A stretch of DNA of 64,000 nucleotides from Gammaproteobacteria bacterium (GCA_021647705.1 JAKIUF010000005.1:43936-107935), one strand, 5' to 3'. Counted from the stretch's first letter, positions 6,825 through 31,928 are shown. The notes: generated from the sequence alone by a model not told the origin. Numbers and translations are program-made.

Positions 6825-6867
6825 CTTTCTCACAACCAACAGCGCAAATTAAACACGCCCTCAGCAT

Positions 6868-8760: not shown

Positions 8761-8810
8761 ACGTAAGCTGTTTTTATAAAAATACACTTGATACACAACA
8801 GGCAAAACAC

Positions 8811-10636: not shown

Positions 10637-10720
10637 GATATTACGTTTTCGGATTATCAATATAGCTCTTTCTCCTTTCAAATAACCCGCGACATTTGAA
10701 ACCGCATATTTTGGCGGAAT

Positions 10721-14431: not shown

Positions 14432-14802
14432 TTTTACGTTACTGATGTTACGCAGAATTCAGCTATGGGTTCATTATTCGAGAGCGTGGCATCAGTTGCT
14501 TTAAAAAAGACACTTTACTGTCTATTCGTCACCCAATAGAGCATCAAGCCTAACGAAATATCGTGCAAAAGCCAAACAAAGACATAAACCTTCTTTTCTT
14601 GTCACTATATTTCGTACATTTACTATATATCGTAACACTCTGTACGCACCGTAATTCATATTGCATCCGCACGAAACATCTATCCTGTTGAATTAAAAAG
14701 AAATTCATTACAAATAAAAAGATGGCTCATTTTTTGCCTTATCACTGCGAAGGGCTGCACTTAAATAGTGTGCTACCCGCACTAAATCATCTGGAAAACT
14801 CA

Positions 14803-15849
14803 ATGACAAAAGATATGAGCCTTAACATTACCACCGCCCTATTATTGATAATAAGCACTCACACACTAGCAGGCTTCGAACCACTACCACTTATTGCTCC
14901 AGAGCCATCAGACAACCCAAGCTCTGTCGCCAAAATAAACTTAGGGAAACAACTTTTTTTTGACCCTCGCCTGTCACTTGACGGAACAATATCCTGCAAT
15001 ACTTGCCACGATGTTTCTGGTAACGGCACCGATAGCGCCGCAGTCTCAACGGGTATCGGTGGACAAAAAGGAGAGCGTTCTGCACCCACCATATGGAACG
15101 CCGCCTTCTTAAGCTCACAATTTTGGGATGGGCGCGCCGCTACGCTTGAGGAACAAGCAAAAGGTCCGATTCTCAACCCTATTGAAATGGGAATGCCACA
15201 TCAGGAGGCTGCTGTTGAGCGTATTGCGGCAATCCCTGGATACCGAAAACAATTCGCCGCGATCTTTGATGAAAAAAAACCCGTAACTTATGACAATATC
15301 GCCAAAGCAATCGCGGCCTATGAGCGCACACTCATCACACCCAACAGTCCGTTTGATCGTTTTTTAAGAGGGGATAAAACAGCGCTGTCTGCACAAGCAC
15401 AGAAAGGCATGAAGGAGTTCGAAGAAATTGGCTGTATTCTTTGCCATAAAGGGCCAGCTCTCGCAGGACCATCGACGCTGAAAAAAGGTGAAATTTATTT
15501 TCAATGGTTCCCGGCCATGCCCAGCGACTACGATGAAAAATACAAACTTAAAGAAGACCTTGGATACAATCAGGGAAATGATAAAGCCCCTACAGGTAAA
15601 TGGCGTGTACCCACTCTGCGTAACATCGCCCTCACAGCACCATACTTTCATAACGGCTCAGTAAAAACATTAAATGAAGCCGTGCGAGTAATGGCCCGCG
15701 CACAACGCAATCGCGTACTAACAGATCAACAAGCTGCAAACCTTGTCGCATTTCTTGAGAGTCTGACAGGTGAATTTGTTGTACAAAAAAGACCTGAACT
15801 TCCGCCAATGGGCGATGAGGATCAACAATCAACGCTTTCAAACTATTGA
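14803..15849 (+). CDS. Di-heme cytochrome c peroxidase (CcpA/MauG family)
   Basis: Signal peptide, then two CXXCH motifs (CNTCHD and CILCHKG) with CCP-typical spacing. The ATG at 14803 was chosen inside the longer tool ORF. Confidence 0.85.
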   Translation: MTKDMSLNITTALLLIISTHTLAGFEPLPLIAPEPSDNPSSVAKINLGKQLFFDPRLSLDGTISCNTCHDVSGNGTDSAAVSTGIGGQKGERSAPTIWNAAFLSSQFWDGRAATLEEQAKGPILNPIEMGMPHQEAAVERIAAIPGYRKQFAAIFDEKKPVTYDNIAKAIAAYERTLITPNSPFDRFLRGDKTALSAQAQKGMKEFEEIGCILCHKGPALAGPSTLKKGEIYFQWFPAMPSDYDEKYKLKEDLGYNQGNDKAPTGKWRVPTLRNIALTAPYFHNGSVKTLNEAVRVMARAQRNRVLTDQQAANLVAFLESLTGEFVVQKRPELPPMGDEDQQSTLSNY

Positions 15850-15966
15850 AATAAGCTCCACAGAGCAGAGATGGGGGGCACAGACACATGAACAAAATAA
15901 AAAGAGGAAAGCCTGTGATTTACAATAAAATACAGTCAAACAGCCATGACCTTTGAGGTGTAGACA

Positions 15967-17169
15967 TCAAAACCCTAACATCACGCTTAGAACTAACCTT
16001 GAGTCAGATGCAAATGATTTTAATGCTGGATCATTATCGACATGGGAAAATTTATACAGGTTTGCTTCAACAAACCATTGATGCTTGATACGTGTTTTGG
16101 CTCGAAGATCCCAAAGAGTTGAATCATAATCCAGGTCACGGGTTAATCGCAGCTCATATTCGGTGCTGTTTAAGTCATTTACAGCAAGGCGAAGACCAAG
16201 AAAAATATCATTCTGAAAAGGCGTTATAGGCGAGCTACTATCAGATTTTCGTCCATCATAATAATACTCACCATACAATGTCAGCGCATTTTTGCTGGAA
16301 CCCATACGTGGAAATTCACGTTCCAGACCAATACCCAAACCGGTAAAATTATCATCACTCGTAGAGCGATAAGTTGACTCCAGCTTCACCAACAATTGCC
16401 CTTTGATCCATAACAGTTCAAGCCCGGCTTGTTCTATCCGGGCATAATTGGGTTGTAATGTGATGACATGAGCAATGCCATCCAGATTTGGTGTAAAATA
16501 AGGTGTCCGGGCATGGCCTTTGTAATAAGAGACAGCAAACTCCAGGGATGCCAGCATTTGTGAAATACGCACTGCGGAAGAAAGTGTATTTTGTCCCTTT
16601 TCAAACTCTGCATCAGAATATGCAAATGCTGAGTTCCTGAACCGGTCTTTCCTTTCAGCCAAACGCTCTTCCCGGCTATAAGGCAATAACCATACATCAG
16701 CCCTACCATTATCCAGTAACCAGGAAAGCCTCCCTCCTGGAATACCTTGCTTTATGTCCCCCTGGAAATCCTCAACGCGATCTCTCGGGTTCAGTATGTC
16801 CACCGGGCTGAATGCTTCCAGCACACCCCAGCGTTCCATTAACATACCGCCAGACATTTCAAGCTGTGAAGCGTAGTAACTCAATGCAAGTTCACGCACA
16901 TCACCCCGCCCGGATTTATTCGCCGCAGGATGATAACGGCCAAAAACAGACACATTGATGTCGGTATTACGATTTATCTGACCGTTATAATCCAAGGTTG
17001 TAGCAAGCGCATACTGACTTTGACGATCAGACTGTTCACTGAACAGCGGGGCTTCAGCATAATACTCATACCGGCCTTCCACCTCTCCTTTAAATGTTGC
17101 TCCATTGGCTATCGAATATAGTGCTAACATCGAAAAAACCAATAATACAGAAGCGTGGCCTTTCTTCAT
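15967..17169 (-). CDS. Outer-membrane beta-barrel protein (DUF1302-like), last gene of the PKS/MMPL operon
   Basis: Signal peptide. Alternating amphipathic beta-strand pattern rich in Y/G. C-terminal ...SVMLGF ending in Phe. Sits directly downstream of the LolA-like gene. Confidence 0.55.
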   Translation of the reverse strand: MKKGHASVLLVFSMLALYSIANGATFKGEVEGRYEYYAEAPLFSEQSDRQSQYALATTLDYNGQINRNTDINVSVFGRYHPAANKSGRGDVRELALSYYASQLEMSGGMLMERWGVLEAFSPVDILNPRDRVEDFQGDIKQGIPGGRLSWLLDNGRADVWLLPYSREERLAERKDRFRNSAFAYSDAEFEKGQNTLSSAVRISQMLASLEFAVSYYKGHARTPYFTPNLDGIAHVITLQPNYARIEQAGLELLWIKGQLLVKLESTYRSTSDDNFTGLGIGLEREFPRMGSSKNALTLYGEYYYDGRKSDSSSPITPFQNDIFLGLRLAVNDLNSTEYELRLTRDLDYDSTLWDLRAKTRIKHQWFVEANLYKFSHVDNDPALKSFASDSRLVLSVMLGF

Positions 17170-17171
17170 TA

Positions 17172-17951
17172 TTATTTGGACCATCTTCTCAGCGCGGTGG
17201 GATTAAGGTCGCTTTCCTTGAAGTCTGCACCAAACTCATAATCAGACCAAATAATCGTCGAGACAGCACCGGTCCTCAGGTTGCTCATCACCATTTTCAT
17301 CGGTCGCCAATACTTACCTGCAAATTTTTTATAGTCATAAAAATGCATTTCTTTTAACGGCCTTCCGTTACTATCATGATATAACAACCGCAAGGGATGA
17401 TAGATTTCCTGGTCCACCCACTCTTTTATCATTTTGTAACTGGAATAAGGATAAGCAGGTGTATTTTCAACGACAAATGTTGGTTTGCCATCCAGCAGCT
17501 CATCTTTGATGTATTTGTAGGTGTATTTTTTGACTTCCCAGGTGCCAATATCTTCAAATGACAATTCACTACCTGCAAAACTTCCACTTTTATCTCTGGC
17601 GGCAAGGCGTTTAGTACGACGAAGTGCGGGCATATAAATCCATTGGTCATCCGGCTCCAAACCATGTGAGTAAGTTAAAGAGACCATTCCGGCCAGGTCT
17701 CTGGGCTCCAGAAAATTGACCAGCCGTTTGTCGCCGTCATCAGGAACTTCAATTGTATACATTTTAAATTTTCGTTCACTGGTAAACCCTCCCGGCCCTT
17801 CCAGGGTCATTATTCCCGATACCGCATAGTTACCAAATCCGGAATCTCGACGCTGTGTTTCTTCTGCAATTTCCAAACCCCGGTCAATATCGGCAAAAAC
17901 CGAAAATGTTGCCAGCAGACTTGCTCCAAATAACAGTGCTCGTTTTTTCAT
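17172..17951 (-). CDS. Periplasmic LolA-like (DUF1329-type) lipid-binding protein
   Basis: Signal peptide MKKRALLFGASLLATFSVFA. Size and sequence pattern match the LolA-like proteins that accompany MMPL exporters. 1-nt overlap with the MMPL gene (ATGA). Confidence 0.5.
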   Translation of the reverse strand: MKKRALLFGASLLATFSVFADIDRGLEIAEETQRRDSGFGNYAVSGIMTLEGPGGFTSERKFKMYTIEVPDDGDKRLVNFLEPRDLAGMVSLTYSHGLEPDDQWIYMPALRRTKRLAARDKSGSFAGSELSFEDIGTWEVKKYTYKYIKDELLDGKPTFVVENTPAYPYSSYKMIKEWVDQEIYHPLRLLYHDSNGRPLKEMHFYDYKKFAGKYWRPMKMVMSNLRTGAVSTIIWSDYEFGADFKESDLNPTALRRWSK

Positions 17952-20239
17952 TATAATTTCCTTGTCTTATAAACAACGGATGGCAGAAACAGGAAGTCGA
18001 ATATCAGGGCCAGAAAAATAACAATCGCTGTCATCAATCCCATCCATGCGTTGATTTGAAATCCTGAAATCGCCAGGCAGGAAAAACCGGCGACCAACAC
18101 AATGGTTGTAATGAGAATCCCCGGCCCTGAATTTTTCATCGCATTCAGGATTGCCTGACTGTGATCAACATCCTTGCCTTTTCGTTCCCTGCGCAATGCT
18201 TCAATCAAGTGTATGGTGTCGTCCACGACAATACCCAGGGTAACGGCAACAATGGCAGCAACCGCCATACCGACTTCACCAACGATCAGCGCCCAGCCAC
18301 CCAATGCGGCAACCGGAGGAATAAAATTGGCCAGAGTGGCAAACACACCTAATACAAAAGATTTAAACAAGAAGAAAAGAAGGACAGAGACCGCTAGCAG
18401 CGCAAGCAGCGTTCCTTTTAGCATTTGGTCAATATTACGTTGGCCAATATAAGAAAAAAGAATACTTGTCCCTGTTGCTTTAGCCGTTTTATGCAATAGT
18501 GGAGTATGCTCTCCCATCCATTGCTCAGCGCGCTGAACAAGATCAAGCATTTCGGATGTTGAGGCATCATACAGTGATACTGTCAGCCTGCTTTCACTTT
18601 TATCCACGGTCACCTGATCCCTCAGTCCAAGCCCCATGGGCAGGGACATTTCGTATAACCATAAATATTGAGCAGCCACATATTTGTCGGTGGGCAAAAT
18701 ATAGTTTTCTTCATCACCACCATTCATGGCTCGATTGATCGTTTTCATGATGTCGGCCAAAGAGTGGACGTGAGACACTTCAGGCTGTTCTCTCAGCCAG
18801 TCTGAAAACTGGTTTAACTGATTTAAGTACTCAGGGTCTGTGATGCCATCCGGGTCGGTTGCCGGTGAGTAATCAATGGTATAAAAACCACCGATATGCT
18901 GATTCATATAATCTGTATCATTTCTGAAATCGAAGCGCTCATCAAAATACTGTACATAACGATCATCCAGTTTATTGGTCAGTGCCAGACTGGCTAGGCC
19001 AAGGCCCAATACAAGAGAGGTCACAATCACTTTGTTTGTGTGACGGGTCACCAGTCCATGCAAAAAAATCCACAGTGACTCTGGCACCAATGGACGTTGC
19101 TGAGAGACACGCCAGGGCAACATCAGAAGCAAAACCGGTAACAAAGTAAGGCTGAAGCCCCAGGCAAACAAGGTACCAAAACCGGCAATCATGCCCAGAT
19201 GGGCAAAGGGAGGTGATTCACTGAACATTAAGGAAAAGAAACCCACGGCGGTGGCCAGACTGGTCATGGTGATGGGACGAATCGTTTCTTTCAGACCCTG
19301 TTGTATTGCCCAGGATTTATCCTTATCAGGGTTTTCCCGGCGAAACCGGGAAACCGCCGAAACAAGGTGTATACAATCTGCGGTTGCAAGCGTCAGAATG
19401 ATAAAGGGTGCAGTGACACTGGGAGATGAGAGGGGTATACCCAACATTCCGGCAACCCCCATTCCACAAGCAATAGCCGCCAGCATAATGACCGTTATTG
19501 CCGAAACTACCCAGACTGACCTGAAGATTAACCAGAGCAGAAAAAGCATCAGCGTAATCATAATCGGGGTTAATAATGCCCCATCATTGGCACCGGCTTC
19601 ACCGAATGCATTGTCCAGCGCCAATGAGCCGGACAGCCGTAAATCAAGCTCATCCTGTGTTGATTCAAAATCGGTAATAATTTTCCTTGCCTGTTCCGTT
19701 AAATTAAATGCAGGGTCTCCCTGTAAAGTGTCATCCAGACGAAACTCCACAGCTACCAATCCTACCTTTGCATCACGGCTCAACAGTTGCCCAAGTAACA
19801 TGGGCTCCTGTATGGCGGCTTGTTTTAAAGCCTGTGCATCCAGGAGAGAAATCTCATCCCCTTTCCGATAAAGATGGTCGATGACAATATCGTCTCCCCG
19901 TGCAACAACACGTTGGAAGTTCGTCACTGAGTCCACACGTTTGGTGTGTGACATCGCCCAGGCTTTATCCGTTAATGTGGTTAACGCTTTTAGTTTTGAG
20001 GGGGTAAACAGGTCGCCCTCTCGGGCGGAAACAATAAATACCAGCGTATTTTCACGGCCATATTTTTTTTCAAAGCGCTCCAATTCCAGAAGTTCCGCGT
20101 TTTCATCTGAGAAAAACACTCGAGCATCACTTCTGAATTCCAACCCGGCAATGCCTGCCGAAATAATAGAGGTCAATAACAACGATATCGAAAAAACAAA
20201 CCAGGGGCGCGCCAGTATCCATTTGGCATAACAATCCAT
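17951..20239 (-). CDS. MMPL-family RND-superfamily lipid exporter
   Basis: 762 aa with two blocks of ~6 TM helices, each preceded by a large periplasmic loop. Typical MMPL topology. N-terminus MDCYAKWILARPWFVFSISLLL. Confidence 0.8.
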   Translation of the reverse strand: MDCYAKWILARPWFVFSISLLLTSIISAGIAGLEFRSDARVFFSDENAELLELERFEKKYGRENTLVFIVSAREGDLFTPSKLKALTTLTDKAWAMSHTKRVDSVTNFQRVVARGDDIVIDHLYRKGDEISLLDAQALKQAAIQEPMLLGQLLSRDAKVGLVAVEFRLDDTLQGDPAFNLTEQARKIITDFESTQDELDLRLSGSLALDNAFGEAGANDGALLTPIMITLMLFLLWLIFRSVWVVSAITVIMLAAIACGMGVAGMLGIPLSSPSVTAPFIILTLATADCIHLVSAVSRFRRENPDKDKSWAIQQGLKETIRPITMTSLATAVGFFSLMFSESPPFAHLGMIAGFGTLFAWGFSLTLLPVLLLMLPWRVSQQRPLVPESLWIFLHGLVTRHTNKVIVTSLVLGLGLASLALTNKLDDRYVQYFDERFDFRNDTDYMNQHIGGFYTIDYSPATDPDGITDPEYLNQLNQFSDWLREQPEVSHVHSLADIMKTINRAMNGGDEENYILPTDKYVAAQYLWLYEMSLPMGLGLRDQVTVDKSESRLTVSLYDASTSEMLDLVQRAEQWMGEHTPLLHKTAKATGTSILFSYIGQRNIDQMLKGTLLALLAVSVLLFFLFKSFVLGVFATLANFIPPVAALGGWALIVGEVGMAVAAIVAVTLGIVVDDTIHLIEALRRERKGKDVDHSQAILNAMKNSGPGILITTIVLVAGFSCLAISGFQINAWMGLMTAIVIFLALIFDFLFLPSVVYKTRKL

Positions 20240-20246
20240 ATTAATT

Positions 20247-21563
20247 TTACACTCCTGCGTAAGCTGTGGTATTCGCCAGTATTCGTTTTAAGGAATCCAG
20301 CGTATAAATAAAGTCTTCCTGTGTATGTTCTGAGGTAATAAAAAAACGAAGACGCGCTTCATTTTCAGGAACCACGGGATACATGACAGCATGGGCAATA
20401 ATGCCAACCTGTTGTAAATCTGACATCAGGTGAACAGCTAACATGCTATCTCCCAACATCACAGGCACTACGGCTGAGGCACCACTCCCTCCTGTATCAA
20501 ACCCCCGTTCTCTTGCCAGTTGGGAAAACTGTCTGACATTATTTTGCAGTCTTTCCACTCGCCATGATTCTTCCAGCATTATTTTTATTGCCCTGTTCGC
20601 GGCAGCGGCAGATGCAGGAGGGAGTCCGGTACTGTACAGAAGCACACCGGGTGCAAAGAAACGCAGCAGTCTTATCATTTCTTCAGAACCACCCAGAAAA
20701 CCACCGCAGCTGGCAAAACTCTTGCTCAGCGTCCCCATAATAATATCAACCTGACTGGCATTAATGTTCCAGTGTTCGCATAAACCCCGCCCGCTTTTTC
20801 CTACCACACCCAATGAGTGAGCCTCATCCACCATCAGCCAACAGTTGTGTTTCTTTTTAAGTTCAACAAGGCGGGGAAGATCTGCCAGATCACCATCCAT
20901 GCTGTAAGCGCCTTCAACAATGATAATTGCTTTTTCATAATTTCCCCGATTCTCATCCAGTAAAGTCGCCAGAGCATCGAAATCATTATGGGGGAAAACA
21001 ATCCGGCGGCTATCAGCCATAACAGCGCCCATAACACCACTGTTATGCATATATTCATCCATAATGATCAGGTCGCGTTTACCCATGAGGTAGCCAATAG
21101 TTGCCACGTTTGTCATATAACCACCCACAGTGGTTACACAACTTTCAAAACCAAACGCATCACACAGGGTGTGTTCCAGCTCCGCATGTATCGCCATCTC
21201 TCCCCCCACCATGCGTGCAGCACCTGCATGTGTCCCATATTGATCGAGAGAGTGTTTGGCGGCATTAATAACGCGCTCATCATTAGCCAGACCAAGATAG
21301 TTGTAACCCGAATAACAAATAAATTCTTTTTTTCTGCTGGTGACCTTGTTGGACAAATGACCGGAGCGCGGCATAAAGTAGGGATTATTCATCCCTTCCC
21401 GTCCATACACATCATCAATTTTTTCAATGATTTTATAATCTGCGGTCTTTGTAACATCCATGGCATGGATACGGGTGTTATCAATACCAGCATCTGTGTT
21501 GATCTTCTTTTTTCCCAAAAACTCGGACTTAAATGATTCTAATAAATCTGCATTCACACTCAT
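20247..21563 (-). CDS. Alpha-oxoamine synthase family PLP-dependent acyltransferase (8-amino-7-oxononanoate synthase / serine palmitoyltransferase-like)
   Basis: Class-II aminotransferase fold. PLP-lysine motif GTLSKSFASCGGFLGG. Start taken at MSVNADLL..., 20 bp downstream of the PKS stop. Confidence 0.85.
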   Translation of the reverse strand: MSVNADLLESFKSEFLGKKKINTDAGIDNTRIHAMDVTKTADYKIIEKIDDVYGREGMNNPYFMPRSGHLSNKVTSRKKEFICYSGYNYLGLANDERVINAAKHSLDQYGTHAGAARMVGGEMAIHAELEHTLCDAFGFESCVTTVGGYMTNVATIGYLMGKRDLIIMDEYMHNSGVMGAVMADSRRIVFPHNDFDALATLLDENRGNYEKAIIIVEGAYSMDGDLADLPRLVELKKKHNCWLMVDEAHSLGVVGKSGRGLCEHWNINASQVDIIMGTLSKSFASCGGFLGGSEEMIRLLRFFAPGVLLYSTGLPPASAAAANRAIKIMLEESWRVERLQNNVRQFSQLARERGFDTGGSGASAVVPVMLGDSMLAVHLMSDLQQVGIIAHAVMYPVVPENEARLRFFITSEHTQEDFIYTLDSLKRILANTTAYAGV

Positions 21564-21582
21564 CAAACATCTCCATATTTTG

Positions 21583-24500
21583 TTATGCCGCAATATCTTC
21601 CTGATTATCAATTTGTAATTGATCGCGGCATTTGTGCGCCAAAGCGGATATTGAACTACTGCCAATCAACTCCAGCGCTGAAACCGATACTCCCAGAGTT
21701 GCATCCAAACTCACACGGATCTCTGTTGCCATCAGGGAATCAACACCCAGTGATTCCAGAGGGCGGGACGGGTCAATCTGTTCTACCGGCATTTTTAATG
21801 CTGTGGCAAAAACCTCTGACACCAATGAAGTCAGCACTTGTGTTTGCACTTCCTGATCCAGCACCGCAAGTTTTGCTGACAAACGTGACTTGACAGAATC
21901 ATCATGTTCTTCCCTTGCGTCCTCAAGCACTGTGCGATAGCGCGATGAATGAACCGCATTTATCTCATACCCACTCCATTTTCCCCATTCGGGCTGAGAG
22001 GAAATACTGATATTGACCTGGCCCGTTGATATTGCACGCTCCATACCATTCAATCCCAGATTAAATGAGAGCGGTGAAAGCCCGATTTGAGTCAGGTGAT
22101 CACCGATCTTGCTATCCTGACTCAACATGCCCACAGAACCAATTGCACCCCAGTTGATACTCATGCCTGCTTGGTTATGCAACTGGCGATACCTTGCCAA
22201 GGCATCAAGAAAACCATTTGCCGCACAATAATTAGCCTGACGGCTATTACCCAGCAAAACAGAAATGGAGGAGTACAAAACAAAATGATCTAGTTTATGC
22301 ACCTGTGTGGTGACGTGAAGATTCCAGGCACCTAATGCTTTGGGAAGCATGACCTTGTGCATGTCCTCTTTTGTCATTTTTTCAATGGGTTTGTCTTCCA
22401 GCAAACCTGCGGTATGGAAAACCCCCTTAAAGGGCATCCCTATTCCTTCGATCATCTTGATCATATTCTGAACGGAAGCCGTCTTTGAAAGATCACAGGG
22501 TTGTGCCGTGGCATGCGACCCCATGGCGGCTAGCGTCTCCATAAATACTTGGTCATCACGACTCTCTCCGGCCCTTCTGCTACACAACACAATATGTCCA
22601 GCCCCGCGTCTGGCCAGCCATTTTGCCGTCTCTTTTCCCAGGCCGCCAAACCCTCCTGTGACAAGATAAACAGCATCGGGAAAAATATTAACGGTATCCA
22701 TTGCCTGTGCAGGCAACTCTGAATCATCATCAAAATTCAGCACTAAATTATCATCTGTCATTGATGGACCATGATGAACAAACTGTTTTAATTTCGTGCT
22801 TTGTCCTTTGAATTTTTCTGTATTGCCTGTCATCACCTCATGCAAGCATTGAACAACTTGTGCTTTGTTATTTTTCAGGTCACTGGCCAGACTGTAACGA
22901 ATCATCGAACCTATGTTGTACCGACACATAAAGGCACTTTCATTATTCGCAAGGTCAACAACAATACCGCCCTGTACCAGCATATTAAACCCAAAAAATT
23001 TGTCCCATTCCTCAACAGGTACGGCAAGTAGCGAAATGTTTTTATCACCAACAATATCGTCTATTGAAGTCTTGCCCCAATCGTGTTGGTTCGCCGACAC
23101 CGTGATAACGTCGATTTGTTTTTCCTTAAGCAGGGATGAGAGCGCCTGACCCAGCGCGTTCTCACATACCAGCGCGGTTGATCCCGCAGACAGTGAAACA
23201 GCATTCATGATCCGTCGGGCAGAAACCCTGCAAATTGCCTCGCTGGCAACAAAAGACGCTGATACAGCATTATCAATTTTCACCAACAACCCTGCATCCA
23301 GAGATATCAGAGCATGAGAAGAAAGTGCGAAAGGAATAATTCCCGCAACACGATCACCTACATTATAATCACTTACATTCATGCCAACACGAGTTATGCG
23401 AGCACACACTCCTGTCAATCCAAGTTCACTGGCATTGTCCTGAGAGCCGGTTATATTTTTGGGCAGATTAATCGTCTCAATTTTTAATTCAACCTCATCG
23501 GCAGCAACTTTAGGTGCCGCCATCTCGATTAATCCAAAAGCATTTCCATTCTCTGCTGGCATCAACTCAAACCTGTCATTCGACCCGGCAGACAGTGTCG
23601 TTTCATGAGCTTCCAAAAATATCCCTGACGGCAACAATTCCGAGAAATAACGCCCCGAACTTCGTAATGCAACTTCATCTTTATTACGATTAGAAAGAAG
23701 CTCTTTCAACAATGCCGTAATATTTTCATCATCAACCATTTTTGGCAGATCAATAATAGTGGTATTGAGATTTTTTATTTCATTGAACGCCACCCGACTC
23801 AACCCCACCAACGCCCCCTGGGCCGGAATAATGCTGGTATCAAAAGTATCAATAATAAAGGCACTTCGCGTCACGATATAAAGCCGGGGAGTGGATGGGG
23901 CTTTTGCCAGTATTTGTATTAATTCGAGCAGGTGTGTACTGGCCTGTATCCCGACAGGGTCCAGAGCATTGTCATAACCTGAATCAGCCATATATAAAAC
24001 GGCATCAAATTTTGTTGTGTCTATGCTTCCCGATACCACTTCATCCATAGAGGCGACGGTACAGTCGGTGGTGGTCTGCTGTGTAATATTAGTGCATATC
24101 GTGCCGAAAATTGAGACATCACCCTCTTCAATAGCCAACCATTTTTTGTTGGCTATCGTAAAATCATCAAGCTCTTCAGCTTTCCACTCAAATCGGAGAT
24201 CACCCTCGGGATATTCTTTATGCTTATCTTTGTTCAGCAATGCCGAACAGACCAAGCCATTGATACTGGCAACTATATTGCCATCCTCATCACACACCCA
24301 TAAATCACATTCGATTTTTCGTGCAGTGCGTTTCTTCATGCGACCATGACAATAAACTCGCGCAGGAAGTACACCGTAAATTTTCATTTCATTAATCGCT
24401 GTTGGCAAAAATGTCCCTTTTTCAGGATCCAGCAAACATAATACGGTTTGCAGGCAACCATCCAGCAGACTTGGATGAACTTGATAGTGATGACTATCCT

Positions 24501-27500
24501 GAGCAAGGTCATCCGGTAAAACTAATTGGCTGATAACCTCACTGCCATTATCTTTCAAATAACAGCAGACTATTGGTTGAAACAGCGGCTTGTATTGCAT
24601 AGAAAATTTTGCAAAGTTCTGATAAACCTCATTAGCCTGTAGTGGTTTCTCAAGCCTTGTTAACAGATCTTGAATATCGACTCTGGAATTTCCAGCTGAG
24701 CGCAACGGATAAATAAACGCACTTGCATGCCGACTGACCTGATCAGGATTTTGTTCATCAAAACTTTTTACGGTAAATGTATCTCCCGCTTCATTCACGG
24801 TTACTTCCATATTGAGTGCTTTGTCTGAGTCAAGCACCAGCGCTTTCTCAATAGAAATATCCGTCAGTCGCCACCCCTTGCCCAAATCCATCGACGTGCC
24901 CTGAGCACATTCAATCATGGCTTCGATATACCCTGCGGCAGGCATAATGGAAAGCCCATCAACAACATGGTCTTGCAGATAATTCAACCGATAATCGGCG
25001 AGATCGCTACGCCACACATTGGCTGCGGGGATTTTCATTCCCAATAATGGGTGTTCAATATCGTCCAGGCGATCACGTCGCTGGGCCTCGGATTCACGCC
25101 ACAAAACTTCACGTTGCCAGGGATAAACAGGCAGCTTTATAAAGCGGCCCTCCGGGTGACGAAGCTGCCATTGCAGCTCGGCTCCTTCTGCATAGGCGGT
25201 AGCGATGGACTGATAAAAAGATTCAAGCTCCCGTTGTTTTCTGTTTAAAGTTTGACACAAATTTACTTCTGTTCCGGCATCAGTACAAATTTCCTTAATG
25301 GCATTACGCAATACAGGATGAGGGCCCACTTCGATAAACACACGGTAATCGTCATCAATCAATGTGCGTATTGCTTTTTCAAAATAAACGGGGTTGCGCA
25401 CATTTTCACACCAATAAGCAGCGTCATAACGTATGTCTGTTATGCATTCTCCAGTGACGGTTGAATAAAGCGGTATAGTGGGCTCAACAGGTGTCAGTGA
25501 TGACAGCTTCTCCATTAGTTCCGGCTTAAGTGGCTCCATCATGGGGCTGTGATAAGGCACTTCAACAGCCAATGCCCGGGCAAACACATCACGCGCTTCT
25601 AGTTGCGCTCGCAATTCATCCAGACAGTCGGAATCACCCGCCAGCGTCACCCCGGTGGGGCTGTTGATTGCGGCAATACTGACCTTTCCCTGGTAAGTCG
25701 TGATCGCTTCCAATGCCGCTTCGTGTGTTAAACCAACCGCCAGCATACCGCCCTGGTGTGCTGCTTTTTTCTGAATCTGGCTACGATAAAAAGCCACATG
25801 TAACGCATCTCGTAGGCTTAACATACCAGCAGCCCAGGCAGAACTTATCTCCCCCACCGAATGACCCACTACTGCCGCAGGCTCCAGGCCTTCCGATCGC
25901 ATTGTCTCGGTCAGCGCATATTGAATAACAAAATTTGCCGGTTGTGCGTATTGGGTTTCTGTAATGCGGGAATCTTTTTCAGACTTCATCATTTCCGCTT
26001 TAATGGAAAAATCGGCAATCTCTTGAAAGATTTTGTCAGCGTGCTCTACGGCTTCTCTGAACACAGCATTGCCTTGATAAAGCCCCTGACCCATCCCCCA
26101 CCATTGCGGCCCCATTCCCGTATAAATAAAAACAGGTTTTACCTGGCCAGTAAAAGGTTTACTGCCTTCCGCTGCCTGCGGTGAATATCCCTTCTCAACA
26201 TATTCACCCAATACACTAAGCATTTCCTTGTCATTTTTACCCCACAGTGCGAGACGATACTCCAGGTGTCCCCGTCGCCGTGAGGCTGAATAAATAACAT
26301 CATCCAGCTTGCTGCCAGAATGCAACAACTGTAAATAATCTTTCGCTAAGGTTTTTACGGCTTCCTGACTACGTGCAGAAATGGGTAACAATTTGCAAGA
26401 CTGTTTGCCAACCGTTCTTTTACACTCTCCCATTACCTCATTGTTTATTTCTGGAGGCAGGCTCAATATGGCATGCGCATTGGTACCACCATAACCAAAA
26501 GAGTTAATGGCAATACGTCGGGTTTCACCTTCCGCTGCCAACGAACTCAATTCTGTCGCCAGCATCAAGCCATTTTCACCAAAAGGAATATTGGGATTGG
26601 GTTCTTTAAATGTCGCCAGAGGCGGTACTTTGTTATGTTTTAACATCATGCAGACTTTGATGATGCTGGCAACACCGGCCGCCGCTTCCAGGTGTCCTAT
26701 ATTACTTTTCAAGGAGCCTATCTTGCATAAATCGGTACGCTGTTGACCGTAAACTGAAGCAATAGCTGATGCCTCTATGGGATCGCCCACCGGGGTGCCG
26801 GTTCCATGCGCTTCTACATATTGAATACTTTGCGCAGCCAGCGAGGCACGGGCAACCACCTTTTCCATCAAAACCTGTTGAGACTTCGCGCGGGGAACGG
26901 TAATGCCACTGGTACGGCCATCCTGATTAACACCCACAGCATCAACAATCGCCAGAATAGGATCACTGTCCGCCAATGCCTGCTGAAGTGATTTCAGAAT
27001 GACAACGCCAGCTCCTTCACCACGGCCATAACCATCTGCCCGTGAATCAAAACTTTTTGACAAGCCATCACGCGCCAGGAATTGCCCCTTTGACATGGCA
27101 ATCGGGTATTCCGGGCGCAACATAAAGTTTACCCCTCCGACAATAGCCATTTCACACACACCACTGCCAATGTCATTCACTGCATATGAAAACGCGACCA
27201 GTGAAGATGAACAGGCTGTATCAACAGAAATACTGGGACCGCGCAGATCATAAGCATATGAGAGACGATTGGAGAGCATGGTCAGTGTTGCACCGGAAGC
27301 ACTGTGTGTACCGATTTCACTTCGCGCACTACTGCCCAGTTGATTGAGCATATGATCCAGGGTAAATCCACCCACATAAACACCGACATCCCGCCCTGCC
27401 AATGTCGTCGGATCTATTCCCGCATCTTCCAGTGCTTCCCATGACACTTCCAGCAACAGGCGTTGCTGGGGGTCATAAAACTCTACTTCCCGAGGTGCAA

Positions 27501-27753
27501 AATTAAAAAACCCTGCATCAAATTCTTTATAATTCCAGTCAACAAAATGCCCTTTACGCACATATGATTTTCCGGATGCCGTGCCTTCCGTATTATAAAA
27601 CCGTTTCGCTTCCCAGCGATTTTGAGGAATATCACTTATTGCATTTTTACAATCGGCAATATTTTCCCAGAATGCGTCTGCTGTATTCGCACTTCCGGGG
27701 AAACGGCACCCCAGCCCGACAATCGCGATCTTTGATTCCTTATCAATATTCAT
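21583..27753 (-). CDS. Type I polyketide synthase, single fully reducing module (KS-AT-DH-ER-KR-ACP), 2056 aa
   Basis: KS active-site Cys DTACSSSLVA. AT serine GHSVGE. DH HPLLGMKIP...DGLSIMPAAGYIEA. MDR-type ER segment (...GDRVAGIIPF...). KR Rossmann VYLVTGGFGGLG with YxxxN (YCAAN). ACP LGVDSLMATE. Confidence 0.9.
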   Translation of the reverse strand: MNIDKESKIAIVGLGCRFPGSANTADAFWENIADCKNAISDIPQNRWEAKRFYNTEGTASGKSYVRKGHFVDWNYKEFDAGFFNFAPREVEFYDPQQRLLLEVSWEALEDAGIDPTTLAGRDVGVYVGGFTLDHMLNQLGSSARSEIGTHSASGATLTMLSNRLSYAYDLRGPSISVDTACSSSLVAFSYAVNDIGSGVCEMAIVGGVNFMLRPEYPIAMSKGQFLARDGLSKSFDSRADGYGRGEGAGVVILKSLQQALADSDPILAIVDAVGVNQDGRTSGITVPRAKSQQVLMEKVVARASLAAQSIQYVEAHGTGTPVGDPIEASAIASVYGQQRTDLCKIGSLKSNIGHLEAAAGVASIIKVCMMLKHNKVPPLATFKEPNPNIPFGENGLMLATELSSLAAEGETRRIAINSFGYGGTNAHAILSLPPEINNEVMGECKRTVGKQSCKLLPISARSQEAVKTLAKDYLQLLHSGSKLDDVIYSASRRRGHLEYRLALWGKNDKEMLSVLGEYVEKGYSPQAAEGSKPFTGQVKPVFIYTGMGPQWWGMGQGLYQGNAVFREAVEHADKIFQEIADFSIKAEMMKSEKDSRITETQYAQPANFVIQYALTETMRSEGLEPAAVVGHSVGEISSAWAAGMLSLRDALHVAFYRSQIQKKAAHQGGMLAVGLTHEAALEAITTYQGKVSIAAINSPTGVTLAGDSDCLDELRAQLEARDVFARALAVEVPYHSPMMEPLKPELMEKLSSLTPVEPTIPLYSTVTGECITDIRYDAAYWCENVRNPVYFEKAIRTLIDDDYRVFIEVGPHPVLRNAIKEICTDAGTEVNLCQTLNRKQRELESFYQSIATAYAEGAELQWQLRHPEGRFIKLPVYPWQREVLWRESEAQRRDRLDDIEHPLLGMKIPAANVWRSDLADYRLNYLQDHVVDGLSIMPAAGYIEAMIECAQGTSMDLGKGWRLTDISIEKALVLDSDKALNMEVTVNEAGDTFTVKSFDEQNPDQVSRHASAFIYPLRSAGNSRVDIQDLLTRLEKPLQANEVYQNFAKFSMQYKPLFQPIVCCYLKDNGSEVISQLVLPDDLAQDSHHYQVHPSLLDGCLQTVLCLLDPEKGTFLPTAINEMKIYGVLPARVYCHGRMKKRTARKIECDLWVCDEDGNIVASINGLVCSALLNKDKHKEYPEGDLRFEWKAEELDDFTIANKKWLAIEEGDVSIFGTICTNITQQTTTDCTVASMDEVVSGSIDTTKFDAVLYMADSGYDNALDPVGIQASTHLLELIQILAKAPSTPRLYIVTRSAFIIDTFDTSIIPAQGALVGLSRVAFNEIKNLNTTIIDLPKMVDDENITALLKELLSNRNKDEVALRSSGRYFSELLPSGIFLEAHETTLSAGSNDRFELMPAENGNAFGLIEMAAPKVAADEVELKIETINLPKNITGSQDNASELGLTGVCARITRVGMNVSDYNVGDRVAGIIPFALSSHALISLDAGLLVKIDNAVSASFVASEAICRVSARRIMNAVSLSAGSTALVCENALGQALSSLLKEKQIDVITVSANQHDWGKTSIDDIVGDKNISLLAVPVEEWDKFFGFNMLVQGGIVVDLANNESAFMCRYNIGSMIRYSLASDLKNNKAQVVQCLHEVMTGNTEKFKGQSTKLKQFVHHGPSMTDDNLVLNFDDDSELPAQAMDTVNIFPDAVYLVTGGFGGLGKETAKWLARRGAGHIVLCSRRAGESRDDQVFMETLAAMGSHATAQPCDLSKTASVQNMIKMIEGIGMPFKGVFHTAGLLEDKPIEKMTKEDMHKVMLPKALGAWNLHVTTQVHKLDHFVLYSSISVLLGNSRQANYCAANGFLDALARYRQLHNQAGMSINWGAIGSVGMLSQDSKIGDHLTQIGLSPLSFNLGLNGMERAISTGQVNISISSQPEWGKWSGYEINAVHSSRYRTVLEDAREEHDDSVKSRLSAKLAVLDQEVQTQVLTSLVSEVFATALKMPVEQIDPSRPLESLGVDSLMATEIRVSLDATLGVSVSALELIGSSSISALAHKCRDQLQIDNQEDIAA

Positions 27754-28618
27754 AATCCATTATCCTCACGGTAAACGTACAGACATTACCCATATTTCCC
27801 TATTTACTTTTCATCGATCACAACAAAAACATGACCTCCCCGTCAATCACAGATCAACTTAATATATTTTTGCATTGATGACGAACAACTTTATCACAGA
27901 AAAATATGTAATATTTACATTCCTACACAATCTCCTTATTCGACCACTAAATACTGTTATAAATTTATGGAAATAAAAAAAATAACTGTATATTTATAAT
28001 CGCTATTATTTTTATAAATAATATCTATCAGTATTTTTCTATCAATTTTTTGTTATACAAAATGCGCTTGATCACTTTGCACCCAAAAACCAAGGAACAC
28101 TCTCAACTAAGTCGGGTTAATTATGAAAATCAAAAAACTTGCTGCAAGAAAATAATTTTTCTTCGTTCACTCACAACACATTACACCCCGACAAAAATAT
28201 TTCGCTTACTGATTCCGGTTTTATTTTTTGAACGGAAAGGAAAAATGCTCGACAAAATTTTTCCAATACTGCTCAGAAAGCATTTTCAATACACCCGGTT
28301 ATTATTAAGTGCCCTGTATTTATTCAAATCTATCCTTTTTCCTGAATACGCTTCAATTGACAACACCCCTCAACTAAACAGGTAACATTACCCGGGAAGT
28401 TATACCCATAGCGTTTAGGACTCAGATCTGATTGAACACCTCACAATGAAATAACGATATACGTGTATTTTGTCTTGCCATGGAGAAAATATGCCCACAC
28501 GTAAACCTGAACCCCAAACGCCACGGGCATATGCCAAAAGTCTATTTATTTTTGCTTAACTGGGCAGTAGTGATAAAATGCAGGGATTTCCCCTACAAGA
28601 ACATACAAAGGAAGATTC
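27754..28618. other. 865-bp strongly AT-rich non-coding region upstream of the PKS operon (probable promoter/regulatory region; the 111-aa ORF inside is unlikely to be real)
   Basis: Long A/T runs (e.g. AAATAATAATTTTTATAAATAATATCTATCAGTATTTTTC). Composition differs sharply from the flanking genes. Confidence 0.5.
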
Positions 28619-29551: not shown

Positions 29552-29641
29552 CCCAGGCTTAACATTCGTTCCCTATTAAAAGCATTACAGCCATCATCCC
29601 GATACGGATCGGGATGATGCACCCGCCAAAAACAGGCACTT

Positions 29642-31630: not shown

Positions 31631-31928
31631 CTGAGCCCAGCCATGCAACGCTAAAAAGACGCTGCGACATGCCTACAACCAGGCAACAGCAGACCAAAGC
31701 CCATAAAAAGCAAATGGGCATAGGTAAATATACTGTTCCATACGGGCAAATACCATGACCCCTCTCCTGTAATTTCTCTGGTTTTAGGCCCGGCCAGCTT
31801 TTATACTCCACGCTGCTGAATAATGCAGGTTGCCCACATCGTCAGCCAGGAAGGCCAACGCCCCGGTAACAACGCCTAAGACAAGGCGCACTGCCCACCC
31901 AAAGCTGTATTTAGGAGTCAAACGCCCC

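What the first reader, a model, noticed from the sequence alone, without database searches (positions are those of the whole stretch)
15967..27753. Single-module fully reducing type I PKS co-transcribed with an alpha-oxoamine synthase and a lipid-export trio (MMPL RND exporter, LolA-like protein, outer-membrane beta-barrel): a candidate amino-lipid biosynthesis and export pathway
Five minus-strand genes are packed with 1-20 bp spacers or overlaps (PKS stop 21583 / AOS start 21563; AOS stop 20247 / MMPL start 20239; MMPL and LolA-like share ATGA; LolA-like stop 17172 / OMP start 17169). That spacing is what an operon looks like. The PKS has a complete reducing loop (KS DTACSSS, AT GHSVGE, DH HPLLG..., MDR-type ER, KR GGFGGLG/YxxxN, ACP DSL), so it should make a saturated fatty-acyl-like chain on its ACP. 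AOS-family enzymes such as AONS, serine palmitoyltransferase, CqsA and Fum8 condense an acyl thioester with an amino acid, with decarboxylation, to give an alpha-amino ketone. Together the two enzymes predict a sphingoid-base-like or amino-ketone lipid. The MMPL / LolA-like / beta-barrel trio is the architecture used to move hydrophobic lipids across the envelope. I do not recognise this exact five-gene arrangement as a characterised pathway. It is flanked by an 865-bp AT-rich region, a PfkB kinase and an LTA-synthase-like transferase that could modify a head group.
Basis: partly seen in the sequence, partly recalled or inferred. Interest (0 to 1): 0.85.

Follow-up and report, generated by a model that had tools for sequence, protein, structure and literature searches.

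The report
ER-less PKS–aminolipid synthase with exporter

Summary
The five co-directional, tightly packed minus-strand genes are real. They are a 2056-aa type I PKS, a 438-aa alpha-oxoamine synthase (AOS), an MMPL/HAE3 RND pump, a periplasmic LolA-like protein and a 400-405-aa outer-membrane protein (OMP) with an 18-strand barrel fold.

One claim fails. The PKS has no working enoyl reductase (ER), only a degenerate remnant: GGVG has become ALG, there are deletions, and Pfam finds nothing.

The same cassette ("class A") occurs in at least 15 loci. They come from Chromatiales-like MAGs, Chromatiaceae, Pseudomonas, Marinobacterium, Microbulbifer, Ketobacter and Nitrospirota, with unrelated flanks.

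The closest characterised system is PfSgaAB of Pseudomonas fluorescens MYb115, where an iterative PKS plus a serine-specific AOS makes C24-C28 sphinganines. The window is not an orthologue of it:
- its AOS is 41% identical and falls in a separate clade (200/200 bootstraps);
- it has clade-specific changes in the amino-acid recognition loop;
- SgaA-type PKSs keep an intact ER;
- no ketosphinganine-reductase-like gene is adjacent.

The export trio also exists alone and beside SgaB-like or myxobacterial SPT-like genes.

Best reading: an exported, probably unsaturated, sphingoid-type amino lipid. The product, the amino acid and whether the PKS iterates are all inferred. I file it as a new variant of a known kind.

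The parts
21583..27753 (-). Single-module type I PKS, 2056 aa: KS-AT-DH-[psiKR + degenerate ER remnant]-KR-ACP. It has no loading domain and no TE or R release domain.
   Evidence: Pfam, NCBIfam, motif alignment. The same protein is called in the public record GCA_021647965.1.
26458..27735 (-). KS domain (aa 7-432). The Cys-His-His triad is intact: DTACSSS, EAHGTGT, NIGHLE.
   Evidence: Pfam PF00109 and PF02801; alignment.
25183..26133 (-). AT domain (aa 541-857). It has GHSVGE and VPYHS. It lacks the GHSQG / YASH methylmalonyl signature, so malonyl is the likely extender.
   Evidence: Pfam PF00698, E 4.7e-77; alignment. The specificity rule comes from established PKS knowledge and was not tested here.
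24232..25053 (-). DH domain (aa 901-1174). It has HPLLG, the catalytic His in DHVVDGLSIMP (HxxxGxxxxP) and the Asp in HPSLLDGCLQ. These are conserved across class A.
   Evidence: Pfam PF21089 and PF14765; alignment.
22774..23553 (-). Degenerate ER-like remnant (about aa 1401-1660). GGVG has become ALG, there are deletions, and it is the least conserved part of the protein.
   Evidence: No Pfam hit at E<=10. Weak alignment to the MAS ER. Motif alignment against intact class B ERs. 65% identity to the closest relative, against 80-95% for the other regions. Not found by tblastn with a real ER domain.
22141..22674 (-). KR domain (aa 1694-1871). It has TGGFGGLG, Ser...YCAAN, and an LED (LDD-like, B-type) motif.
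   Evidence: Pfam PF08659, E 1.1e-61; alignment.
21634..21822 (-). ACP (aa 1978-2040), with the GVDSL phosphopantetheine attachment site.
   Evidence: Pfam PF00550; alignment.
20247..21563 (-). PLP-dependent alpha-oxoamine synthase, 438 aa. It belongs to the class A clade, which is sister to the PfSgaB-containing clade. The catalytic residues His173, Asp246/His249, Lys281 and Arg404/406 are conserved. The substrate loop reads GTHAGAAR, where the SgaB clade has GTSxSASR.
   Evidence: Pfam and NCBIfam, all scores below the equivalog cut-offs. Best PDB matches are SPTs. Tree and bootstrap. Clade-specific columns.
17951..20239 (-). MMPL / HAE3-type RND inner-membrane transporter, 762 aa.
   Evidence: Pfam MMPL (two stretches), Sterol-sensing and Patched; TIGR00921 HAE3 at 174.7 bits, below its cut-off.
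17172..17951 (-). Periplasmic LolA-like carrier, 259 aa. It has a Sec signal peptide (…SVFA/DIDRG) and no lipobox Cys.
   Evidence: Pfam PF17131 LolA_like, E 2.4e-51; sequence.
15967..17184 (-). Outer-membrane beta-barrel protein, 400-405 aa (start at 17169 or 17184). It has a signal peptide, a C-terminal Phe and an 18-strand Occ/AlgE-like fold. No Pfam or NCBIfam family matches.
27754..28618 (.). 865-bp spacer of 33.9% GC, upstream of the PKS and shared with the divergent PfkB gene. It is the presumed promoter and regulatory region. The best sigma70-like match is at 28045-28018 (minus strand).
   Evidence: No Rfam hit. No sigma54 -24/-12 match.

Best explanation
This is a self-contained five-gene cassette, referred to here as class A.

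Proposed mechanism:
1. The single-module PKS (KS-AT-DH-ER0-KR-ACP) builds or extends an acyl chain on its own ACP using malonyl units. It probably works iteratively, like SgaA.
2. KR and DH are intact and the ER is dead, so the chain as made by this protein alone should keep at least the alpha,beta double bond (2-enoyl or polyenoyl).
3. The discrete PLP-dependent AOS releases the chain by decarboxylative Claisen condensation with an amino acid. This gives a long-chain 2-amino-3-keto (sphingoid-type) lipid.
4. The MMPL/HAE3 RND pump extracts the lipid from the inner membrane, the soluble LolA-like protein shields it across the periplasm, and the 18-strand barrel receives or inserts it at the outer membrane.

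Shown: gene content, domain integrity, ER decay, conservation of the cassette, the separate AOS clade, and the barrel fold.

Inferred: iteration, chain length, unsaturation, the amino acid, export rather than import, and co-transcription.
For: 1. The cassette is conserved with unrelated flanks: window/L001-4, L005 Pseudomonas sp. M30-35, L006 Chromatiaceae, L007 Nitrospirota, L008/L009, L010 Marinobacterium, L013 Microbulbifer, L110 and L108. In addition, 9 of 9 metagenome loci with enough upstream DNA carry it.
2. The characterised analogue PfSgaAB proves the PKS + AOS to sphingoid-base chemistry (PMC12134224).
3. The window AOS lies in a clade together with the PfSgaB superclade, to the exclusion of SmSPT, LCB2a, Kbl, ThAOS and BioF (197/200). 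Its best solved relatives are SPTs.
4. The catalytic residues of KS, AT, DH, KR and ACP are all intact. The ER is degenerate in all 7 class A PKSs aligned (GGVG motif lost), 4 of which were also scanned against Pfam with no ER hit, and it is their least conserved region.
5. A related ER0-type PKS + AOS pair in Chamaesiphon (L068) is followed by a stand-alone MDR reductase. No such gene is found in the window or in the class A loci.
6. The trio recurs next to SPT-like genes:
- Thiomargarita L109, with an ER+ PKS and an AOS 56% identical to PfSgaB;
- Corallococcus L067;
- M. xanthus, where an MmpL downstream of spt is noted in bioRxiv 10.64898/2026.04.12.717747.
7. The aryl-polyene clusters use an analogous RND + LolA-like system for outer-membrane localisation (PMC8253772).
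Against: - No product has been observed for any class A member.
- An unlinked trans-acting ER or FabI-type enzyme could still saturate the chain.
- The AOS differs from serine-specific PfSgaB at 3 of 5 residues of the amino-acid recognition loop (the roles of the loop residues come from PMC10196870). Serine cannot be assumed.
- No 3-ketoreductase (SgaC-like SDR), N-acyltransferase or head-group enzyme is conserved with the cassette, so the final lipid is unknown.
- The direction of transport is not established. A similar MMPL-LolA fusion plus a 'porin' in Thalassolituus was interpreted as alkane uptake (PMC6304351).
- The trio also occurs without any PKS or AOS, so it is a generic module.
- Co-transcription is inferred from spacing only.
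Confidence: 0.6

Rival explanations
1. It is functionally the same as PfSgaAB. It makes saturated very-long-chain sphinganine-type bases from L-serine, with enoyl reduction supplied in trans by an unlinked reductase or by residual activity of the ER-like region. The exporter is simply an add-on.
For: - It has the same PKS + AOS logic.
- Thiomargarita L109 shows the same trio attached to an ER+ PKS and an SgaB-like AOS. That suggests the ancestral cassette was fully reducing.
- Fungal LovB/LovC and the stand-alone reductase in L068 show that an ER0 can be complemented in trans (LovB/LovC is from established knowledge).
Against: - No MDR-type reductase is detectable in the 64-kb window or in any class A locus.
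- Three of the four glycines of the GAAGGVG loop are replaced, and a further ~18-aa stretch after it is deleted.
- The AOS substrate loop differs consistently from that of the serine-specific clade.
Confidence: 0.2
2. It makes a diffusible alpha-amino or alpha-hydroxy-ketone signal of the CAI-1/LAI-1 type, or a pyrazine formed by amino-ketone dimerisation, rather than a membrane lipid.
For: - AOS enzymes of the CqsA/LqsA type make such signals (established knowledge).
- The cassette has no reductase or acyltransferase to mature a sphingolipid.
Against: - The CqsA-type NCBIfam model scores 158.9 bits against a cut-off of 428, well below the bioF, SPT and Kbl models.
- A 2056-aa PKS plus a three-component lipid-handling envelope system is out of proportion for a small signal.
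- The nearest characterised relative makes C24-C28 lipids.
Confidence: 0.08
3. The trio imports a hydrophobic substrate, such as an alkane or fatty compound. That substrate then primes the PKS, or the trio is functionally unrelated to the PKS-AOS pair and merely adjacent.
For: - In Thalassolituus oleivorans an MMPL-LolA fusion plus an adjacent 'porin' are induced on C28 alkane and were proposed to act in uptake.
- The trio occurs alone in Photobacterium and on a Pseudoalteromonas plasmid.
Against: - Within the reach of the OMP search, every locus with enough sequence has the PKS-AOS pair directly joined to the trio.
- Gene order varies (PKS-AOS-MMPL-LolA-OMP versus PKS-AOS-LolA-OMP-MMPL) while the linkage is kept across phyla.
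- Characterised MMPL/HAE-type RND pumps are PMF-driven exporters (established knowledge).
Confidence: 0.07
4. The AOS is BioF (biotin synthesis) and the neighbourhood is coincidental.
For: The best NCBIfam hit by score is TIGR00858 bioF (339 bits), and JGI names many homologues '8-amino-7-oxononanoate synthase'.
Against: - 339 bits is below the 426.45 cut-off.
- No bioA, B, C, D or H gene is nearby.
- The AOS groups with PKS-linked SPT-like enzymes and away from E. coli BioF.
- It is always linked to the PKS.
Confidence: 0.01

Closest known systems
PfSgaAB (with SgaC) of Pseudomonas fluorescens MYb115: PKS-dependent sphingolipid biosynthesis (Peters et al., Nat Commun 2025, PMC12134224)
   Same: - A monomodular type I PKS is immediately followed by a discrete AOS in the same orientation.
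- The AOS belongs to the same broad SPT-like superclade (197/200).
- Chain release is expected to be by decarboxylative condensation, giving a long-chain 2-amino-3-keto base.
   Different: - The AOS is only 41% identical to PfSgaB. Class A AOSs are the most distant from PfSgaB of all 87 loci compared, and form a separate clade (200/200).
- SgaA-type PKSs (L082, whose AOS is 84% identical to PfSgaB) are about 2500 aa with an intact ER (ADH_N, ADH_zinc_N, HGAAGGVG). The window PKS is 2056 aa with a dead ER.
- The substrate loop reads GTHAGAAR here and GTSVSASR in PfSgaB.
- No KDSR-like SDR is adjacent.
- The exporter trio is present here. It is absent within 10 kb of the class B loci examined.
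Fungal HR-PKS + AOS pairs (Fum1/Fum8 fumonisin; sphingofungin SphB/SphA; myriocin cluster)
   Same: A polyketide chain is condensed with an amino acid by an AOS to give sphinganine-analogue amino lipids (cited in PMC12134224 and PMC13612406; otherwise established knowledge).
   Different: These are eukaryotic clusters with tailoring oxygenases, reductases (Fum13, SphF) and MFS/ABC transporters. They have no envelope-spanning RND / LolA-like / barrel system. Homology to the window was not tested here.
Aryl-polyene export proteins ApeL (LolA-like), ApeM (RND) and ApeN (LolB-like DUF3261) (PMC8253772)
   Same: A biosynthetic cluster for a hydrophobic, possibly polyenic, acyl product carries its own RND pump plus a LolA-like periplasmic carrier for outer-membrane localisation.
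   Different: The outer-membrane partner here is an 18-strand barrel, not a LolB-like lipoprotein. APE synthesis is type II FAS-like with no AOS. Sequence relationship was not tested.
Myxobacterial spt-MmpL neighbourhood (hypothesised alternative sphingolipid exporter; bioRxiv 10.64898/2026.04.12.717747)
   Same: An SPT-like AOS lies close to an MMPL transporter. In Corallococcus L067 the MMPL is followed by a LolA_like protein (E 1.9e-47) and an ORF with faint DUF1302 similarity.
   Different: No PKS hit was found in the available DNA of L067. MMPL and LolA-like are only 23-27% identical to the window's. Function is untested in either case.
Stand-alone MMPL / LolA-like / unnamed-barrel trios (Thalassolituus TOL_3187-3188, PMC6304351; Photobacterium sp. 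GJ3 pGJ3-1; Pseudoalteromonas rhizosphaerae p1)
   Same: The three components are the same. In Photobacterium the order is also the same (MMPL-LolA-OMP). Identities to the window proteins are 33-41% for MMPL and LolA-like and 26-29% for the OMP.
   Different: No PKS or AOS is nearby. The Thalassolituus pair was proposed to act in long-chain alkane uptake.
ER0 PKSs complemented in trans (LovB/LovC paradigm)
   Same: An ER-like domain is retained structurally, but its NADPH motif is destroyed.
   Different: A candidate trans-ER is encoded next to the related Chamaesiphon cluster (L068) but not in class A cassettes.

Membership tests
Fully reducing type I PKS module (KS-AT-DH-ER-KR-ACP) | KS, AT, DH, KR and ACP are present with their catalytic motifs | tested here: met
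   Pfam; motif alignment.
Fully reducing type I PKS module (KS-AT-DH-ER-KR-ACP) | MDR-type ER with an intact NADPH-binding HxxxGGVG motif | tested here: not met
   No ADH_N or ADH_zinc_N hit at E<=10. The motif reads CENALG, with deletions. The same holds in the class A relatives.
SgaAB-type PKS-dependent sphingolipid cluster | Monomodular type I PKS directly followed by a co-oriented AOS | tested here: met
   19-nt spacer. The pairing is conserved.
SgaAB-type PKS-dependent sphingolipid cluster | AOS orthologous to PfSgaB (same clade) | tested here: not met
   41% identity, against 84% for L082. Class A forms a separate clade, 200/200.
SgaAB-type PKS-dependent sphingolipid cluster | SgaA-type PKS architecture (about 2500 aa, intact ER) | tested here: not met
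   L082 PKS is 2499 aa with ADH_N and ADH_zinc_N. The window PKS is 2056 aa with neither.
SgaAB-type PKS-dependent sphingolipid cluster | KDSR-like SDR (SgaC) in the cluster | tested here: not met
   The neighbours are a cytochrome c peroxidase, a sigma54 activator, PfkB, an LtaS-like protein and an ODP metallo-beta-lactamase. None is an SDR. Only the immediate neighbours were scanned, not the whole genome.
SgaAB-type PKS-dependent sphingolipid cluster | L-serine-specific SPT activity and a very-long-chain sphinganine product | not testable with these tools
   Requires enzymology and lipidomics. The loop substitutions caution against assuming serine.
Alpha-oxoamine synthase family (PLP fold type I) | Aminotran_1_2 fold with the catalytic Lys (T-L-S-K), the PLP-stacking His, the D..H pair and the carboxylate-binding Arg | tested here: met
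   Pfam E 2.5e-44. H173, D246, H249, K281, R404 and R406 are invariant in alignment A1 and align to SmSPT.
BioF (8-amino-7-oxononanoate synthase) equivalog | TIGR00858 score above its cut-off, and a bio-operon context | tested here: not met
   339 bits, below 426.45. No bio genes are adjacent.
Canonical bacterial SPT equivalogs (NCBIfam NF047600, NF047599, NF047603) | Score above the curated cut-off | tested here: not met
   288.5 against 640; 262.3 against 500; 207.5 against 670.
CqsA/LqsA autoinducer synthase | NF005526 score above its cut-off | tested here: not met
   158.9 against 428.
MMPL / HAE3 RND transporters | Two MMPL repeats with a sterol-sensing-type transmembrane bundle | tested here: met
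   PF03176 in two stretches, plus PF12349 and PF02460. The TIGR00921 subfamily model is below its cut-off (174.7 against 351.9), so the subfamily assignment is loose.
LolA_like (PF17131) periplasmic carriers | Pfam score above the gathering threshold, and a secreted non-lipoprotein | tested here: met
   174.5 bits against 30. The signal peptide has no lipobox Cys.
OprD/Occ porins | 18-strand monomeric barrel fold | tested here: met
OprD/Occ porins | Sequence membership (Pfam OprD or any porin family) | tested here: not met
   No Pfam or NCBIfam hit even at E<=10. Identity to the structural matches is 7-13%.

The most novel reading that the evidence does not exclude
Class A cassettes would make a new class of bacterial envelope amino lipids.
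- The acyl chain would be unsaturated by construction. It would be either a 4-ene, giving a sphingosine-type base without any desaturase, or a conjugated polyene.
- The AOS would join this chain to an amino acid other than L-serine. This is suggested by the clade-invariant H112, G114 and A116 in the substrate loop. Residue 114 aligns to SmSPT Ala79 and human SPTLC1 Cys133, the HSAN1 selectivity site.
- The lipid would be delivered to the outer membrane by a previously uncharacterised three-component route: an HAE3 RND pump, a LolA-like carrier, and a roughly 400-aa barrel from a family of 1447 clusters that has no Pfam model.
- That route would also be the missing alternative pathway for sphingolipid transport in bacteria that lack a second LptFG.
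Probability: 0.3. Interest if true: 0.78.

Novelty: new variant of a known kind. Interest (0 to 1): 0.58.

Why it matters
PKS-dependent sphingolipid synthesis in bacteria was shown only in 2025, for one cluster type. The window shows a second, phylogenetically separate cassette type. It spans Gammaproteobacteria and Nitrospirota, and its chemistry should differ because the ER is dead and the amino-acid loop is altered.

It is also physically coupled to a dedicated inner-membrane to periplasm to outer-membrane transport trio. How sphingolipids reach the outer membrane is an open question outside Caulobacter: a 2026 preprint proposes an MmpL route for Myxococcus without a test.

This cassette offers a compact, transferable five-gene unit in which synthesis and transport can be tested together. 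Cultured carriers are available: Pseudomonas sp. M30-35, Marinobacterium nitratireducens and Microbulbifer rhizosphaerae. The work also defines a large, unnamed outer-membrane barrel family.

Tried and rejected
- **Sigma54 promoter.** A sigma54-dependent activator lies about 1.5 kb downstream of the cassette, so I searched for TGGCAC-N5-TTGCW upstream of the PKS. With up to 2 mismatches there was no match in 27754-28618, and the window-wide count equals chance.
- **Intrinsic terminators between genes.** None at any junction, and the total equals the shuffle expectation.
- **Riboswitch or leader in the AT-rich spacer.** No Rfam hit in 15000-29000 at E<=0.1.
- **Family size from the ER-like region.** Searching this region against the 5.8-billion-protein index returned only 2 hits, because the word prefilter failed. 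This was uninformative.
- **LolA-OMP fusions.** Longer OMP-family representatives (518-917 aa) were checked. Pfam showed only DUF4114, SPOR or nothing, so there is no support.
- **BioF / biotin interpretation.** Rejected.
- **PfkB and LtaS-like genes as cassette members.** They are retained only in the 90%-identical relative L008 and are absent from L005, L006, L007, L010 and L013. An LtaS-like or phosphoglycerol-transferase-like enzyme could in principle make phosphoglycerol head groups like those of the MYb115 PG-sphingolipids, but that is speculation.
- **Literature.** Searches for this exact gene combination found no description of it.

Full report
**Source and observation**

The window is part of contig JAKITR010000009.1 of GCA_021647965.1, a MAG that NCBI labels only 'Gammaproteobacteria bacterium'. 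Its closest relatives are Chromatiales-like MAGs.

Five minus-strand ORFs occupy 15967-27753:
- PKS, 21583-27753, 2056 aa
- AOS, 20247-21563, 438 aa from the ATG that public gene callers also use
- MMPL, 17951-20239, 762 aa
- LolA-like, 17172-17951, 259 aa
- a 400-405-aa ORF, 15967-17169/17184

The junctions are 19 nt, 7 nt, an ATGA overlap, and a 2-nt gap (or a 13-nt overlap). Shine-Dalgarno-like motifs precede the downstream starts. No terminator-like hairpin lies at a junction, and the regional count equals the shuffle expectation. The packing is therefore operon-like, but co-transcription remains an inference.

**Domain check**

Pfam finds KS, AT, DH, KR and ACP in the large ORF. It finds Aminotran_1_2 in the second, MMPL and sterol-sensing domains in the third, LolA_like (E 2.4e-51) in the fourth, and nothing in the fifth.

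So do the true DH catalytic motif (DHVVDGLSIMP), the DxxxQ Asp, the KR Ser/Tyr/Asn and an LDD-like LED.

The exception is the ER.
- Residues 1175-1693 give no Pfam hit even at E<=10.
- phmmer against the PDB aligns part of this stretch to the mycocerosic acid synthase psiKR + ER. At the NADPH loop, MAS has 'HSATGGVGQA' and the window has 'CENALGQA'.
- Against three PKSs with Pfam-verified ERs (HGAAGGVGIAAIQ), all seven class A proteins show xALGxA. They share a 2-residue deletion there and a further ~18-residue deletion after it.
- The ER-like stretch is the least conserved part of the protein. It is 65% identical to the nearest relative, against 80-95% elsewhere, and 23-30% identical to more distant class A members, against 47-72% for KS, AT and KR.
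- A genuine ER domain does not detect it by tblastn.

I conclude that this is an ER0 pseudo-domain. The module is functionally KS-AT-DH-KR-ACP.

**The fifth gene**

An exhaustive HMMER search finds 1447 representative clusters (964 at E<=1e-10). This is a large family of roughly 400-aa proteins with no Pfam or NCBIfam model.

**Conservation of the cassette**

Looking up homologues of the AOS and scanning GTDB genomes and JGI metagenomes shows the same five genes together in the following loci:
- Pseudomonas sp. M30-35, next to gyrB-recF-dnaN-dnaA
- a Chromatiaceae MAG
- a Nitrospirota MAG, where the cassette is followed by a PPTase
- Marinobacterium nitratireducens
- Microbulbifer rhizosphaerae
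- a locus whose AOS is identical to a Ketobacter alkanivorans protein
- further MAGs
- 9 of 9 metagenome loci that extend far enough

The flanks are unrelated. The gene order of the trio varies (MMPL-LolA-OMP or LolA-OMP-MMPL) while linkage is kept. The PfkB and LtaS-like genes upstream of the window recur only in a 90%-identical relative.

**Comparison with the known system**

A literature search found Peters et al. 2025 (PMC12134224). In P. fluorescens MYb115 the iterative monomodular PKS SgaA and the AOS SgaB make C24-C28 sphinganines and phosphoglycerol sphingolipids. SgaB was shown in vitro to be an L-serine-specific SPT. A KDSR-like SDR (SgaC) is nearby.

I took the PfSgaB sequence from their Fig. 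S6. It is 84% identical to the AOS of Pseudomonas sp. S37 (L082) and 56-71% identical to a set of Bordetella, Accumulibacter, Halomonas, Methylococcaceae and Cocleimonas loci, which I call class B. It is only 41-46% identical to class A AOSs, and those are the most distant of all 87 loci compared.

Class B PKSs are about 2500 aa with an intact ER, and they lack the trio within 10 kb.

A neighbour-joining tree of 97 AOS sequences included E. coli BioF and Kbl, ThAOS, SmSPT, AtLCB2a and PfSgaB. Bootstrap support was as follows:
- the class A core is monophyletic in 200/200 replicates
- class A including Microbulbifer (L013) is monophyletic in 110/200
- class A plus the PfSgaB superclade groups to the exclusion of the reference enzymes in 197/200

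All NCBIfam equivalog models (bioF, three SPT models, Kbl, ALAS, CqsA-type) score below their cut-offs. The window is therefore a relative of SgaAB, not a member of it.

**Amino-acid loop**

Nine alignment columns are (near-)invariant within class A and differently (near-)invariant in the other 77 sequences. Three of them lie in the loop GTHAGAAR, which is GTSVSASR in PfSgaB and GTGCAGSR in SmSPT.

In the SmSPT crystal structures this loop contacts the amino-acid substrate (PMC10196870):
- Ala79, equivalent to human SPTLC1 Cys133, contacts the side chain through a water.
- The Gly80 main-chain amide contacts the serine hydroxyl through water.
- Ser81 contacts the carboxylate through waters.

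Window G114 aligns to Ala79 and A116 aligns to Ser81. The PDB entry 8S1Y differs from 7POA (ThAOS) by Val to Ala at the position aligned to A116. From memory, that site was engineered to change substrate scope; I did not verify this. The amino acid used by class A therefore cannot be assumed to be serine.

**The ER question in context**

A cyanobacterial cluster (Chamaesiphon, L068) pairs an ER0-type PKS carrying the same ALG motif with an AOS. A stand-alone ADH_N / ADH_zinc_N reductase follows immediately and is a plausible trans-ER. No such gene is detectable in the window or in the class A loci.

Conversely, Candidatus Thiomargarita nelsonii (L109) carries a PKS with an intact ER and an AOS 56% identical to PfSgaB. 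These are followed by MMPL, LolA-like and a 400-aa OMP homologue. The exporter is therefore not restricted to the ER-less form, and the ER loss looks like a derived feature of class A.

**The trio as a module**

- The trio occurs without any PKS or AOS on Photobacterium sp. GJ3 pGJ3-1, in the same order as in the window. It also occurs on a 24-kb Pseudoalteromonas plasmid.
- In Thalassolituus, an MMPL-LolA fusion with an adjacent domain-less 'porin' is induced on C28 alkane (PMC6304351).
- In Corallococcus (L067), an SPT-like AOS lies a few kb from an MMPL, a LolA_like protein and an ORF with faint DUF1302 similarity.
- A 2026 preprint proposes the MmpL downstream of M. xanthus spt as an alternative sphingolipid exporter.
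- Aryl-polyene clusters carry an analogous RND + LolA-like + LolB-like system (PMC8253772).

The trio is thus a general module for handling hydrophobic molecules that PKS-AOS clusters have recruited.

**Mechanism proposed**

1. The PKS builds a chain from malonyl units. GHSVGE and VPYHS are not the methylmalonyl signature. Iteration is likely by analogy with SgaA, but it is not shown.
2. With KR (B-type-like) and DH active and the ER dead, the ACP-bound product should be a trans-2-enoyl or polyenoyl thioester, unless an unlinked reductase acts.
3. The AOS condenses this product with an amino acid and releases a 2-amino-3-keto lipid.
4. The MMPL pump, the LolA-like carrier and the barrel move the lipid to the outer membrane.

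Steps 1-4 are inferences from domain content and analogy. Only the sequence-level facts are shown.

**Verdict**

The cassette is a new variant of a recently characterised kind of pathway. Its interest lies in three things: the probable change of chemistry, the distinct AOS clade, and the built-in transport system that could make outer-membrane delivery of sphingoid lipids testable.

Noticed in passing
window 37500-44700: A low-GC (0.37-0.44) stretch of short minus-strand ORFs. It contains a PIN-domain toxin (37525-37926) with a 72-aa upstream partner, and IS91-type transposase fragments (Zn_Tnp_IS91 at 40675-41046; Y2_Tnp at 42707-43207). It looks like a decayed mobile or accessory island.
   Followed up: partly
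window 28619-32762: Divergent from the cassette lie a PfkB-family kinase, a 662-aa membrane sulfatase-family protein and an ODP-type metallo-beta-lactamase. The sulfatase-family protein's best NCBIfam hits are LTA synthase and phosphoglycerol transferase I, far below their cut-offs. A phosphoglycerol transferase could in principle make PG head groups like those on the MYb115 sphingolipids, but the linkage is kept only in a 90%-identical relative.
   Followed up: partly
window 6868-10636: A DUF3413 + sulfatase protein (YejM/OpgB-like) and a split glycine-dehydrogenase subunit are followed by a prokaryotic diacylglycerol kinase. These annotations come from the public gene calls for L001 and were mapped to the window by me. 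The pairing of DAG kinase with a phosphoglycerol-transferase-like enzyme recalls DAG recycling in MDO/LTA synthesis.
   Followed up: no
L109 (Candidatus Thiomargarita nelsonii) 3403-14914: A PKS with an intact ER, called as two ORFs of 227 + 1630 aa (a possible frameshift), plus an SgaB-like AOS (56% identical), MMPL, LolA-like and a 400-aa OMP. This is an ER-positive version of the exporter-linked cassette. Toxin-like small genes follow it (Gp49/HTH, Tox-PL-2).
   Followed up: partly
L068 (Chamaesiphon sp. MAG) 3453-16633: An ER0-type PKS + AOS is followed by a stand-alone MDR reductase (a candidate trans-ER), a metallo-beta-lactamase-fold protein and two FAD-dependent oxidoreductases. This is a third, cyanobacterial architecture of PKS-AOS clusters.
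   Followed up: partly
L112 (Pseudoalteromonas rhizosphaerae plasmid p1) 6425-11926: A stand-alone MMPL + LolA-like pair lies divergent from an OMP homologue, directly beside the gamma-mobile-trio recombinases GmtX and GmtY and an integrase. The transport trio can therefore travel on mobile elements.
   Followed up: no
window 15967-17184 (family level): The OMP belongs to a family of 1447 representative clusters (at the 50% identity level) that has no Pfam or NCBIfam model. Some members carry 150-520-aa N-terminal extensions with DUF4114 or SPOR domains.
   Followed up: partly
window 12647-14431 versus L002 13590-15304: The sigma54-dependent PAS/AAA+ activator downstream of the cassette is one 594-aa ORF in the window. 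In a near-identical Logan assembly it is called as 91 + 478 aa, which suggests a frameshift or assembly variant. No sigma54 promoter was found upstream of the PKS.
   Followed up: partly
window 54937-55012: A single tRNA-Lys(UUU) on the minus strand. It is the only tRNA in the window.
   Followed up: no
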